A stretch of DNA of 13,144 bases, from IMG/VR virus record IMGVR_UViG_2537561709_000009. One strand, 5' to 3'. The notes beneath the pieces were generated by a model, which saw nothing but the letters and a program-made list of their open reading frames with translations, was not told where the DNA came from and searched no databases. The first letter of the stretch is position 1; the number at the start of each line of letters is the position of its first letter. The stretch is from a virus (lineage: Duplodnaviria; Heunggongvirae; Uroviricota; Caudoviricetes). The position numbers and the translations under genes were made by a program. This document shows, one piece after another, positions 8,226-9,813 of this stretch.

Positions 8226-9622
8226 AAAGCGCACCGAACTTAAAAAAACAGCCTTACGACAAGATGACCGAAGTCATTATTTTTGCGGGTAGTGATGCCT
8301 GGGCACATGCGAAACAGTGGCAGGAACAGGACGGGCGACTGGCTGGCGATAATGTGCCTCCCGTTGTGCTGGCTGATGATCAACTGGATGAACTGGCAGA
8401 ACTGAGAATCATCGACGAGGGGCGCTATTGTGTCCGGCTGTACAAGGCAGGCCACATCAGGCCATCAAATATTAATGCCATTGCGCACAAGCTGGCGGCG
8501 GCGGGTGTAACTGATGCGAATTATTACCCCGAAGGGATGCACAGCCATATGCGGGAGAACTGGCGCGAATACCTGGAACGGGTGCGCGGGAAAGAGCCGG
8601 CGGAAGAAAAAAACCACCAGCGAAAAACCACGCTACCGATGAGCGTTGGATCTACCGGATACGACACGCAACTGGATTACGTGGTTAAGGGGATTATTCC
8701 GGCGGTATCGCTATGCAGCATATACGGGGCTAGCGGGTCCTATAAATCATTCCTTGCCGGATCGTGGGCGTGCCATGTTGCCACTGGTCGCCAGTGGGGA
8801 GGCCGCAGGGTTGCACATGGTGCGGTTCTCTATGTGGTTGGTGAAGGCGGTATAGGTGTTCCGCGTCGTGTAAAAGCCTGGGAGGTTGTGCACGATGAGC
8901 AGGTGAAAAATCTGTATCTGGTAAACCGCCCCATCTTTCCGGCTGCCCCGCTTGATGTTGATGAAATGGTTATCGCTGCCCGTCAGGTGGAGCGGGAAAC
9001 GGGTAAACCTGTACGCATGATTATTCTGGATACGCTGGCGCGTTGCTTTGGTGGGAATGATGAAAATGATTCCCGTGATATGGGGGCGTTTATCCGTGGT
9101 TGTGACGAACTGAAACGACGCACAGGGGCCACGGTGCTGGTGGTTCACCATTCCGGCAAGGATGAGACGAAAGGCGCGCGCGGTTCCAGTGCATTTCGTG
9201 CTTCGCTGGATGCTGAATACCGGATACGCAGGGAGGACGCAGGAAGCGAAGCGCTGGTTATCTCATGCACCAAAATGAAGGACGCGGAGGAACTCAAAGA
9301 AGCCGCATATGACTTACGCGTGGTGGAGCTTTTTACCGACGCTGACGGTGAATTAATCACGTCGCTGGTGGTGGTGGATGATCCGCGCCCTCCTGTTGAA
9401 CTGGAGCGCATCGAGGAGGCAGGGAACAAGACGGAAAACCATACCGCGCTATGGGGGTGCATCCGTTCACGCACACAGAACGGCGACAAGTGCACGATCC
9501 CGCTGTTACGTGATGACATGAAAAAGCTGGGGTATGAAATGAAAAACTTCCGGCGCTGGCTGTACAAGCTGGAAAAAGATGGGGTTATTCGTATCGATGG
9601 GGATGATGTAGCGCCGCTATAA
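8222..9622 (+). CDS. Replication helicase/initiator, RepA-like RecA-fold P-loop ATPase (AAA_25-type) with C-terminal putative DNA-binding domain
   Basis: 466 aa. Walker A GASGSYKS, Walker B MIILDTLARCFGGNDEND and downstream VLVVHHSGKDETKG fit the RepA/DnaB-like helicase pattern seen in satellite pri-rep proteins. No zinc-binding primase motif seen; the N-terminal ~140 aa has a weak Toprim-like look (EVIIFAGSDAWAHA) that I cannot confirm. Confidence 0.85.
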   Translation: MKSAPNLKKQPYDKMTEVIIFAGSDAWAHAKQWQEQDGRLAGDNVPPVVLADDQLDELAELRIIDEGRYCVRLYKAGHIRPSNINAIAHKLAAAGVTDANYYPEGMHSHMRENWREYLERVRGKEPAEEKNHQRKTTLPMSVGSTGYDTQLDYVVKGIIPAVSLCSIYGASGSYKSFLAGSWACHVATGRQWGGRRVAHGAVLYVVGEGGIGVPRRVKAWEVVHDEQVKNLYLVNRPIFPAAPLDVDEMVIAARQVERETGKPVRMIILDTLARCFGGNDENDSRDMGAFIRGCDELKRRTGATVLVVHHSGKDETKGARGSSAFRASLDAEYRIRREDAGSEALVISCTKMKDAEELKEAAYDLRVVELFTDADGELITSLVVVDDPRPPVELERIEEAGNKTENHTALWGCIRSRTQNGDKCTIPLLRDDMKKLGYEMKNFRRWLYKLEKDGVIRIDGDDVAPL

Positions 9623-9813
9623 AAGTGAGGAGCAAAAGCGAGGGGGATAGAAAGAGGGCCAAAATTAGCCCGCTCTCCCTCACTTTTCGACCTGTATACA
9701 TCCTCAAAAGTGAGGGGTAAAAAAATACTTATGAAACACACACATAGAAAAACCGAAAATCCCAACTGCGACGAAGTGAGACGCTTGAAAAAGTGAGGCG
9801 AAAAAGTGAGAGG
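9621..9813. repeat. Iteron-like array (AAAAGTGAGG and variants), candidate origin of replication
   Basis: Exact or near-exact copies at 9621-9630, 9706-9715, 9789-9798 and 9802-9811, an inverted copy at 9678-9687, and degenerate copies at 9634-9643 and 9773-9781. Copies 9678-9687 and 9706-9715 are the arms of a 38-bp near-palindrome centred on TGTATACA. Lies directly after the replication helicase gene. Confidence 0.55.

What the first reader, a model, noticed from the sequence alone, without database searches (positions are those of the whole stretch)
9621..9813. Iteron array with an embedded 38-bp near-palindrome directly after the helicase gene: putative origin
At least seven copies of AAAAGTGAGG or close variants occur in both orientations within about 190 bp, and two perfect inverted copies flank the palindromic core TGTATACA. 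Placement immediately 3' of the replication protein gene matches how satellite origins are arranged. The array also overlaps the start of the small ORF upstream of the SSB gene, so it could double as that operon's control region.
Basis: partly seen in the sequence, partly recalled or inferred. Interest (0 to 1): 0.5.

Follow-up and report, generated by a model that had tools for sequence, protein, structure and literature searches.

The report
Phage-satellite island replication origin
The cluster of short repeats right after the helicase gene is real and is almost certainly the replication origin of a phage-satellite island (PICI), bound by the helicase's own C-terminal DNA-binding domain; this layout is already described for such islands, so it is a solid but ordinary find.

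Summary
Seven copies of AAAAGTGAGG lie in 9621-9811: four perfect, two with one mismatch, one weak. Two perfect inverted copies flank TGTATACA, and an A/T-rich stretch (9716-9762) sits before the last three copies. Shuffled sequence never gives more than two such copies in 200 nt.

The window is E. coli chromosome (potA-pepT-roxA) carrying a PICI-type phage satellite at the same site as EcCICFT073. That island's rep-ori region was shown experimentally to replicate, and its origin lies in the same intergenic position, but it has a different Rep and different iterons.

In 75 related loci from more than 15 Enterobacterales genera, the array keeps its layout, starting 2-17 nt after the rep stop codon. 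Its sequence changes with one residue just before the predicted recognition helix of Rep's C-terminal winged-helix domain: N gives GTGAGG, H or K gives GTGGGG, S gives GTGCGG. There are two exceptions among 75 loci, neither among loci with three or more iterons, and at least four or five independent switches. The downstream gene is not conserved, so the "SSB operon control region" idea is not supported.

Verdict: Rep-dependent origin, confidence about 0.85. It is a new member of a known kind, and no experiment has tested this Rep allele.

The parts
8222..9622 (+). rep: 466-aa replication initiator-helicase. It has an N-terminal module (1-125), a RepA-like RecA-fold helicase core (about 148-390) and a C-terminal winged-helix domain (about 400-466).
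   Evidence: Pfam AAA_25 E=2.4e-43, residues 148-315. PHROG 2850 covers the full length; primase/helicase PHROGs match the core. RefSeq calls it 'helicase RepA family protein'. PDB RSF1010 RepA 1g8y matches by sequence (E=0.0055) and by fold (prob 1.00, rmsd 3.6 over 154 columns).
9419..9619 (+). Coding region of the Rep C-terminal winged-helix domain (residues 400-466). This is the predicted iteron-binding domain. The predicted recognition helix is residues 443-452.
   Evidence: AlphaFold2 model of residues 391-466 has pLDDT 87, with H405-419, H426-435, H443-452 and a beta hairpin 456-465. The top 50 Foldseek PDB hits are mostly winged-helix DNA binders (MotA, IclR/PcaR, MexR, IdeR/DtxR-DNA, LexA-DNA, Fur, MCM8 WH, ORC2 WH, DnaD). 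For these hits prob is about 0.9-0.99 and TMq 0.56-0.76, but E-values are only 0.07-0.3.
9545..9547 (+). Codon of Asn442, the residue immediately before the predicted recognition helix. It is the candidate specificity determinant.
   Evidence: It is the only C-terminal-domain position where the window (N) differs from all four GTGGGG-type E. coli relatives by one consistent residue (H). Across 75 loci: N with A 27/27, H with G 12/13, S with C 7/7, K with G 27/28.
9621..9643 (+). Left iteron set: two direct copies (9621-9630 perfect, 9634-9643 one mismatch). The first overlaps the rep stop codon.
   Evidence: The same two positions (+5 and +17 from the stop) are occupied in relatives.
9677..9716 (.). 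Divergent inverted iteron pair: 9678-9687 on the - strand and 9706-9715 on the + strand. It flanks a spacer that holds the palindrome TGTATACA (9693-9700).
   Evidence: 11-nt arms are 100% complementary. An inverted pair with a 22-24 nt spacer holding a TATATA or TGTATACA core is found in 58 of the related loci (59 rows including the window).
9716..9762 (.). A/T-rich stretch (62-86% A+T in 21-nt windows, A-rich on the + strand). It is a candidate DNA-unwinding region between the inverted pair and the right iteron set.
   Evidence: In relatives the 60 nt after the inverted pair average 66% A+T.
9772..9811 (+). Right iteron set: three direct copies (9772-9781 weak, 9789-9798 perfect, 9802-9811 one mismatch).
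   Evidence: The positions +171 and +183 from the stop are conserved in relatives.
9823..10074 (+). Small ORF (83 aa, PHROG 1231, unknown function). It is a neighbour of the origin and not a conserved part of the rep-ori cassette.
   Evidence: RefSeq start ATG 9823. The PHROG profile aligns from residue 11 of the GTG-started ORF. Absent downstream of rep-ori in 78 distant loci.
10071..10493 (+). Island-encoded single-strand DNA-binding protein. It is a likely accessory of replication, present in the E. coli islands only.
   Evidence: Pfam SSB E=3.7e-16. Also follows the origin in EcCICFT073. Not found in the distant loci.

Best explanation
The region 9621-9811 is the replication origin of a PICI-type phage-satellite island integrated between roxA and (normally) phoQ.

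Proposed mechanism:
- After the island is induced and excised, the 466-aa Rep encoded just upstream binds the AAAAGTGAGG iterons through its C-terminal winged-helix domain.
- Asn442, at the start of the recognition helix, is the candidate reader of the A at iteron position 6 (AAGTG-A-GG).
- The seven sites comprise two direct copies, a divergent inverted pair around TGTATACA, and three direct copies beyond an A/T-rich stretch. They would gather many Rep subunits on about 190 bp.
- The DNA melts at the TATA-like core and/or the A/T-rich stretch.
- Rep's own RepA/DnaB-like RecA-fold helicase domain assembles on the opened strands and unwinds.
- Host primase and polymerase do the synthesis, with the island's SSB helping.

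Shown here: the repeats and their statistics, the conserved layout tied to rep, the Rep-iteron covariation, the winged-helix prediction and the PICI context. Inferred: binding, melting site, helicase self-loading and DnaA independence.
For: 1. The repeats are far beyond chance.

2. The context is a PICI-type satellite. It has an integrase, an AlpA-like HTH, Icd-like and DUF4222 genes, Rep, SSB and a protease-capsid fusion. It sits at the same roxA/phoQ site and has the same gene order as EcCICFT073.

3. The published layout matches. PMC6092414 states that Gram-negative PICI origins lie immediately 3' of rep, with two iteron sets flanking an A/T-rich region. It also reports that the EcCICFT073 rep-ori segment drives plasmid replication, and that deleting rep abolished, and deleting ori significantly reduced, colony formation at the restrictive temperature. 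In EcCICFT073 the equivalent intergenic region carries at least 12 unrelated iterons (CTGTCTACC) next to an unrelated helicase and C-terminal domain. Only the N-terminal 125 aa are shared, at 62% identity.

4. The layout is conserved across 75 loci from Xenorhabdus, Pectobacterium, Serratia, Pantoea, Kosakonia, Morganella, Klebsiella and others. Iterons sit at about +5, +17, +57(-), +89, +171 and +183 from the rep stop. The locus-specific 8-mer occurs 245 times in 75 x 220 nt and only 22 times in the other 424 kb.

5. Iteron base 6 covaries with the residue before the recognition helix: N-A 27/27, H-G 12/13, S-C 7/7, K-G 27/28. The classes are interleaved on a tree built from the helicase core alone, which implies at least 4-5 independent co-switches. 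The closest case is the window against E. coli relatives with 95% identical Rep: H442N together with G-to-A in all iterons.

6. The C-terminal domain is confidently predicted as a winged helix. SaPI Reps bind their iterons with a C-terminal winged-helix domain (PMC9371898).

7. The array position is fixed relative to rep and not to the downstream gene.

8. A 16,971-bp circular Klebsiella 'plasmid' is a satellite of this kind with the same origin layout. This is consistent with episomal existence.

9. There are no DnaA boxes, IHF sites or GATC sites in 9560-9860.
Against: - No experiment exists for this Rep allele or this array. Only the EcCICFT073 allele has been tested, and its helicase and C-terminal domain are unrelated.
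- The covariation shows that the C-terminal domain and the iterons are a matched pair. It cannot separate direct base contact by residue 442 from co-transfer of a C-terminal-domain-plus-origin module.
- The winged-helix assignment rests on a predicted model, and the fold-match E-values are weak (0.07-0.3), as is usual for small domains.
- The A/T-rich stretch is modest (about 65-70% A+T), and the actual melting site is unknown.
- The helicase core is RepA/DnaB-like (RecA fold), not the superfamily-3 type of the SaPI Reps whose self-loading has been studied. The loading mechanism is therefore extrapolated.
- The full-length model is poor (pLDDT 64).
Confidence: 0.85

Rival explanations
1. The repeats are mainly a transcriptional operator or promoter region for the downstream small ORF-SSB genes. 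They would be bound by Rep for autoregulation or by another island regulator, and origin function would be absent or secondary.
For: The array ends 11 nt before the small ORF start, and the last iteron (GAGAGG, 9806-9811, extending to 9813) could serve as its ribosome-binding site. In plasmids, iterons and inverted half-iterons often double as operators (general knowledge of iteron plasmids such as pPS10 and F).
Against: - No sigma-70-like promoter in 9300-10200 (0 found, 0.7 expected).
- No + strand terminator after rep, so read-through from the upstream operon is likely. Gram-negative PICIs are reported to be transcribed unidirectionally rightward (PMC6092414).
- In 78 distant loci with the same array, the small ORF and SSB are absent.
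- In those loci the next gene belongs to at least 7 unrelated families or is missing, at gaps from -24 to 408 nt. The distance from the array to the rep stop is constant.
Confidence: 0.08
2. The array is a different kind of cis site: a packaging (cos/pac) site, a partition centromere, or a binding site for another island protein such as the DUF4222 protein or the small ORF product.
For: Short repeats in both orientations also occur in centromere-like and pac sites. DUF4222 always precedes rep in the E. coli islands.
Against: - The repeat sequence tracks a residue of the Rep C-terminal domain.
- DUF4222, the small ORF and SSB are not found in the distant loci that keep the array.
- No ParA/ParB-type genes were seen among the window's ORFs.
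Confidence: 0.04
3. The inverted repeat acts as an RNA hairpin (a terminator or attenuator after rep), or the repeats are a compositional accident of a purine-rich spacer.
For: The + strand RNA of 9640-9740 folds somewhat better than shuffles (z = -2.5). The region is strongly A- and G-rich.
Against: - The predicted fold does not use the iteron pair as a simple hairpin, and no U tract follows.
- Rfam gives nothing: the best hit is 19.8 bits against a gathering score of 100.
- The arms are the same 10-mer as the direct copies elsewhere in the array.
- Shuffles never give more than 2 clustered copies.
- Iterons are the conserved islands in otherwise diverged spacers across genera.
Confidence: 0.02

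Closest known systems
EcCICFT073 pri-rep/ori, the Gram-negative PICI origin (Fillol-Salom et al. 2018, PMC6092414)
   Same: - Same attachment site (roxA/phoQ) and same gene order: int, HTH, icd-like, DUF4222, rep, [origin], small ORF, SSB.
- The origin lies in the same intergenic position, with many short iterons in both orientations.
- The N-terminal 125 aa of Rep are 62% identical.
- Replication of the rep-ori segment was shown experimentally for that island.
   Different: - The helicase and C-terminal parts of Rep are unrelated: 584-aa 'DNA primase family protein' there, 466-aa RepA-family helicase here.
- The iterons are unrelated: CTGTCTACC/GGTAGAYA with at least 12 copies there, AAAAGTGAGG with 7 copies here.
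- The allele in the window has not been tested.
SaPI Rep/ori of Staphylococcus aureus: SaPIbov1, SaPI1, SaPI5 (Ubeda 2007 and 2012; PMC9371898)
   Same: - The origin is immediately 3' of rep.
- There are 6-12 short iterons on both sides of an A/T-rich centre, with opposed orientations.
- The initiator is also the helicase and reads the iterons with a C-terminal winged-helix domain.
- Rep and origin are matched in specificity.
   Different: - SaPI Reps are AAA+ superfamily-3 helicases. This Rep has a RecA-fold RepA/DnaB-like core (AAA_25).
- There is no sequence similarity.
- The host is Gram-negative.
- SaPI iterons are 5-6 nt; here they are 8-10 nt.
Phage-satellite P4 alpha protein with ori and crr
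   Same: It is an enterobacterial satellite whose single replication protein combines initiator and helicase functions. It binds repeated sites through a C-terminal winged-helix origin-binding domain. This rests on my own knowledge of Ziegelin and Lanka's work and of PDB 1KA8; the PMC6092414 discussion only names alpha and its ori.
   Different: - P4 alpha is 777 aa, with an active primase and a superfamily-3 helicase.
- Its sites (TGTTCACC type) lie in two separated regions, ori and crr, not directly 3' of the gene.
- No sequence match to P4 alpha structures appeared in the PDB sequence search.
RSF1010 (IncQ) RepA helicase with RepC and iterons
   Same: The helicase core is the same family: Pfam AAA_25, and PDB 1g8y is the best solved relative. 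That origin also has direct iterons next to an A/T-rich region (own knowledge).
   Different: In RSF1010 the iteron binder (RepC), the helicase (RepA) and the primase (RepB') are three separate proteins. Here the DNA-binding domain is fused to the helicase, and the iterons include an inverted pair.

Membership tests
PICI replication origin (as defined in PMC6092414 and the SaPI literature) | Lies immediately 3' of the replication initiator gene | tested here: met
   The first iteron overlaps the rep stop codon (9620-9622). In 75 relatives the first iteron is 2-59 nt after the stop, 2-17 nt in most.
PICI replication origin (as defined in PMC6092414 and the SaPI literature) | Several short iterons arranged in two sets flanking an A/T-rich region, with copies in opposite orientation | tested here: met
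   Left set 9621-9643 plus the inverted pair 9677-9716; A/T-rich stretch 9716-9762; right set 9772-9811. One nuance: the opposed copies flank the 8-bp TGTATACA core, while the longer A/T-rich stretch has + strand copies on both sides.
PICI replication origin (as defined in PMC6092414 and the SaPI literature) | Resides in a PICI: integrase at one end, AlpA-type regulator, unidirectional genes, about 10-18 kb, specific attachment site, no lysis or tail genes | tested here: met
   Integrase 4230-5480; HTH, icd-like, DUF4222, rep, SSB and protease-capsid fusion genes, all on the + strand. Same att site as EcCICFT073. The right end of the island is outside the window or rearranged, so size and att could not be checked.
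PICI replication origin (as defined in PMC6092414 and the SaPI literature) | Supports Rep-dependent autonomous replication; Rep binds the iterons | not testable with these tools
   Only indirect support: Rep-iteron covariation and a circular 17-kb relative deposited as a plasmid.
SaPI-type Rep (AAA+ superfamily-3 self-loading helicase with C-terminal winged helix) | Superfamily-3 / AAA+ helicase core | tested here: not met
   The core is Pfam AAA_25 (RecA-fold, RepA-like) with E=2.4e-43. RSF1010 RepA and RadA/Rad51 are the structural relatives. The window's Rep works like a SaPI Rep but is not a member of that protein family.
SaPI-type Rep (AAA+ superfamily-3 self-loading helicase with C-terminal winged helix) | C-terminal winged-helix domain that determines iteron specificity | tested here: met
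   Predicted winged helix at residues 400-466, pLDDT 87. The residue before the recognition helix covaries with the iteron base. This is prediction and covariation, not binding data.
RepA-family hexameric helicase (Pfam AAA_25, RSF1010 RepA type) | AAA_25 domain above the Pfam gathering score; similarity to RepA structures | tested here: met
   148.5 bits against a cut-off of 27. 1g8y matches at E=0.0055 by sequence, and at prob 1.00 and 23% identity by fold.
Classical iteron-plasmid initiators (Rep_3: pPS10 RepA, F RepE, R6K pi) | Rep_3 / tandem winged-helix initiator without helicase | tested here: not met
   No Rep_3 hit in Pfam. The protein has a helicase core and a single C-terminal winged helix.
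DnaA-dependent origins (oriC type, many plasmid origins) | DnaA boxes (TTWTNCACA), often with IHF sites and GATC clusters | tested here: not met
   None found in 9560-9860 on either strand.

The most novel reading that the evidence does not exclude
A single residue at the start of the Rep recognition helix (N442 in the window) may act as a natural one-residue, one-base specificity switch for origin recognition: Asn reads A, His or Lys reads G, and Ser goes with C at iteron position 6.

All six or seven iterons would be converted in concert each time the residue changes, which has happened at least four or five times in Enterobacterales satellites. If so, an N442H swap plus GTGAGG-to-GTGGGG changes would reprogram which island replicates. 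The family would then be a compact model for how initiator and origin co-evolve. My data do not show that co-resident islands avoid sharing a class: several genomes carry two loci of the same class.
Probability: 0.45. Interest if true: 0.45.

Novelty: new member of a known kind. Interest (0 to 1): 0.3.

Why it matters
It fixes the cis-acting origin and the likely DNA-binding domain for one of the common Rep alleles of E. coli and Enterobacterales phage satellites, including the O-island-51-type island of O157:H7. That is useful for annotating such islands, for building satellite-based vectors, and for designing replication-deficient mutants.

The concept itself (iterons 3' of rep flanking an A/T-rich region) was published in 2018 for this class of element, so the finding confirms rather than surprises.

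The one fresh point is the clean residue-to-base covariation. It gives a directly testable specificity rule.

Tried and rejected
- **Promoter and terminator scan of 9300-10200.** No promoter-like site. The only terminator-like hairpin is on the wrong strand. The control-region and terminator readings were dropped.
- **Rfam scan of 9400-10100.** Only a chance SprD hit, 19.8 bits against a gathering score of 100.
- **RNA fold of 9640-9740.** Modest z-score, no U tract.
- **DnaA box, IHF and GATC search.** Nothing found.
- **tblastn of the small ORF, SSB and DUF4222 against 78 distant loci.** Essentially absent, so they are not part of the conserved cassette.
- **Literature search for the iteron sequences themselves.** Only unrelated primer matches. 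The supplements of PMC6092414 list only the EcCICFT073 ori plasmids. Figure 2a of that paper, which shows iteron sequences for several E. coli PICIs, is not readable with these tools. I therefore could not check whether this exact array is drawn there.
- **Full-length Rep model.** Too poor for a global fold search (pLDDT 64; mostly noise apart from RepA and RadA local matches).
- **NCBIfam and Pfam on the N-terminal 130 aa.** No family found.
- **Idea that iteron classes diverge so that co-resident islands avoid cross-talk.** Not supported. Several genomes carry two loci of the same class: L008/L011, L020/L021 and L053/L056.
- **Second covariation (AAATGAGG against AAGTGAGG, with a Gln/His-to-Asn change after KLE).** Not consistent with the E. 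coli sequences, so dropped.
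Full report
**1. The observation**

Reading 9400-10100 and scanning for the motif confirms the array. Perfect AAAAGTGAGG copies lie at 9621 (+), 9678 (-), 9706 (+) and 9789 (+). One-mismatch copies lie at 9634 (+) and 9802 (+). A weaker copy lies at 9772 (+, CGAAGTGAGA), where relatives also have an iteron.

The 8-mer AAAGTGAG occurs six times in the whole 13,144-nt window, five of them here, against 0.35 expected. Six near-perfect copies within 200 nt compare with a maximum of two in 200 shuffles.

The two inverted copies have 11-nt arms that are 100% complementary (9677-9687 and 9706-9716). 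They enclose 18 nt with the perfect palindrome TGTATACA at 9693-9700. The first iteron overlaps the rep stop codon. A 47-nt A/T-rich stretch (9716-9762, 62-86% A+T) separates the inverted pair from the three right-hand copies.

One detail of the finding needs correction. The array overlaps the small ORF only if it is read from GTG 9793. The annotated and conserved start is ATG 9823.

**2. What the surroundings are**

The window begins with E. coli potA, pepT and roxA. From about 4100 it carries an island with these genes, all on the + strand:
- a tyrosine integrase (4230-5480);
- an AlpA-like HTH, Icd-like genes and a DUF4222 gene;
- a 466-aa 'helicase RepA family' protein (8222-9622; Pfam AAA_25, E=2.4e-43);
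- the repeat region;
- a small ORF and an SSB;
- further on, a ClpP-protease/major-capsid fusion.

The stretch 9400-10100 is 100% identical to the island between roxA and phoQ in many O157:H7 genomes. EcCICFT073, the prototype Gram-negative phage-inducible chromosomal island, sits at the same site with the same gene order.

**3. What is already known about such islands**

Fillol-Salom et al. (PMC6092414) state that in PICIs the origin follows the rep gene. [quoted passage not shown] They also report that the EcCICFT073 rep-ori segment drives replication of a thermosensitive plasmid, with deletion of rep abolishing, and deletion of ori significantly reducing, colony formation at the restrictive temperature.

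In SaPIs the Rep protein is both helicase and initiator. It reads 6-12 iterons just downstream of its gene with a C-terminal winged-helix domain (PMC9371898).

In EcCICFT073 the equivalent intergenic region holds at least 12 copies of an unrelated iteron, CTGTCTACC/GGTAGAYA. Its Rep shares only the N-terminal 125 residues (62% identity) with the window's Rep. The helicase and C-terminal parts are unrelated. Iteron specificity therefore travels with the helicase and C-terminal part, not with the N-terminal module.

**4. Comparative test**

Four E. coli relatives have Rep proteins 81-95% identical to the window's. They carry the same array in the same places, but every copy reads AAAAGTGGGG instead of AAAAGTGAGG, while the spacers diverge.

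Within the C-terminal 70 residues, only position 442 differs consistently: N in the window, H in all four relatives.

A scan of one genome per species returned 80 loci with Rep relatives at 53-72% identity. They come from Xenorhabdus, Pectobacterium, Serratia, Pantoea, Kosakonia, Kluyvera, Morganella, Erwinia, Dickeya, Gilliamella and others.

In 75 usable loci the layout is nearly constant. Iterons sit at about +5, +17, +57 (reverse), +89, +171 and +183 from the rep stop. The locus-specific 8-mer occurs 245 times in the 75 origin windows of 220 nt and only 22 times in the remaining 424 kb.

The inverted pair, with a 22-24 nt spacer holding a TATATA or TGTATACA core, is present in 58 of the related loci. 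The following 60 nt average 66% A+T.

**5. Rep-iteron covariation**

The residue before the F/L-x-R-W motif predicts iteron base 6 (AAGTG-N-GG), as counted:

| Residue | Iteron base 6 | Loci |
|---|---|---|
| N | A | 27 of 27 |
| H | G | 12 of 13 |
| S | C | 7 of 7 |
| K | G | 27 of 28 |

On a tree built from the helicase core alone, these classes are interleaved:
- the window (N) sits inside the E. coli H clade;
- a Rosenbergiella N locus is sister to an H locus;
- H loci sit next to or inside S clades.

Residue and iterons have therefore switched together at least four or five times. Among loci with three or more iterons there are no exceptions.

AlphaFold2 models residues 391-466 with pLDDT 87 as three helices plus a beta hairpin. 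The best PDB fold matches are mostly winged-helix DNA binders, several of them in DNA complexes. The E-values are weak, as is usual for 70-residue domains. Residue 442 directly precedes the third helix (443-452), which is the recognition helix.

Whether each switch arose by point mutation or by exchange of a C-terminal-domain-plus-origin module, the C-terminal domain and the iterons are a matched pair. That is what an initiator and its origin should be.

**6. Rival readings**

- **Control region for the small ORF-SSB genes.** There is no promoter-like site in 9300-10200. The small ORF and SSB are absent downstream of the same cassette in 78 distant loci. The next gene in those loci belongs to at least seven unrelated families or is missing, at gaps from -24 to 408 nt, while the array stays fixed to the rep stop. 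A secondary regulatory role in the E. coli islands cannot be excluded.
- **RNA hairpin or terminator.** No U tract follows, the folding z-score is modest, and Rfam gives nothing.
- **Packaging or partition site.** These do not explain the covariation with Rep.
- **DnaA-type origin.** DnaA boxes, IHF sites and GATC sites are absent. This fits initiation driven by Rep alone.

**7. Mechanism proposed**

Rep subunits bind the seven iterons through the winged-helix domain. The divergent inverted pair places Rep on both sides of the TGTATACA core. Melting starts there and/or in the adjacent A/T-rich stretch. Rep's RepA/DnaB-like RecA-fold core then assembles on single strands and unwinds, with host primase and polymerase and the island SSB completing the replisome. 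RSF1010 RepA 1g8y is the closest solved relative of that core.

The binding partner and the site are supported by the data above. Melting position, self-loading and host-factor needs are inferred by analogy with SaPI Reps and P4 alpha.

A circular 16,971-bp Klebsiella 'plasmid' is in fact a satellite of this family. It has an S-class Rep and AAGTGCGGC iterons in the same layout. This is consistent with these cassettes sustaining an episome.

**8. Comparison and novelty**

The region works like a SaPI or EcCICFT073 origin and meets the positional and architectural criteria of a PICI origin. Its Rep is not a member of the SaPI or EcCICFT073 helicase families. It is a RepA-type helicase fused to a winged helix, in effect combining in one polypeptide what RSF1010 splits between RepA and RepC.

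The class of feature is published, and this Rep allele is probably one of the 'four allelic variants' mentioned in PMC6092414. I rate it as a new member of a known kind. I found no experimental work on this allele.

The residue-to-base covariation is the only element that adds something beyond annotation.

**9. Verdict**

| Item | Result |
|---|---|
| Observation | Confirmed |
| Interpretation as origin | Supported, confidence about 0.85 |
| 'Operon control region' add-on | Not supported |
| Interest | 0.3 |

Noticed in passing
window 4100-13144, junctions near 10400-10600 and 13108: The island in the window is a mosaic not found as such in any complete E. coli genome. The stretch 4100-10400 matches the O157:H7 roxA/phoQ island at 99-100%. 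The stretch 10600-13108 is 100% identical to a different small island that sits inside a prophage terminase gene in strain 272. The last ~55 nt (13089-13144) resemble flgG at 94.6%. No complete genome spans the 13108 junction.
   Followed up: partly
window 8222-8596 (Rep residues 1-125); L086 12242-12616: The N-terminal 125 residues of Rep are 62% identical to the N-terminus of the otherwise unrelated EcCICFT073 Pri-Rep. They also occur (62-72% identity) fused to 'primase-like' and DUF5906 proteins on other records. This is a portable alpha/beta module of unknown function, with no Pfam or NCBIfam family.
   Followed up: partly
L087 (CP018459.1, K. pneumoniae pKp_Goe_795-4), whole record; origin at 11892-12105: A 16,971-bp circular record deposited as a plasmid is really a capsid-encoding satellite. 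It has an integrase, a Rep of this family, capsid, terminase and head-tail adaptor genes. It carries AAGTGCGGC iterons in the same layout, so it is apparently an excised episomal form.
   Followed up: partly
L088 (E. coli strain 272) 3928-14346: A roughly 10-kb PICI-like island is inserted inside the large-terminase gene of a lambdoid prophage and splits that gene in two. The island carries int, HTH, BRO-N, icd-like, DUF4222, a primase-type Rep, a small ORF, SSB and a protease-capsid fusion.
   Followed up: no
window 1588-1597: One more perfect AAAAGTGAGG copy lies 9 nt upstream of the pepT start codon (ATG 1606), in the host chromosome. It coincides with the purine-rich ribosome-binding region and is probably chance.
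   Followed up: partly
window 9646-9673: Relatives have a third left-hand iteron (GTGGGGAA) at about +30 from the stop. At that position the window has a degenerate copy and a small G+C hairpin, GGGCCAAAATTAGCCC (9656-9671). The scan reported this hairpin as a terminator-like site on the - strand.
   Followed up: no
L006 (Xenorhabdus beddingii) 3584-3900: The whole iteron array appears duplicated in tandem. There are ten copies, and the second set starts about 224 nt after the first.
   Followed up: no
L010, L018, L028, L082 (Xenorhabdus and an Enterobacteriaceae MAG): A subclass of N-type Reps uses AAATGAGG instead of AAGTGAGG iterons. I found no single residue change that explains this consistently.
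   Followed up: partly
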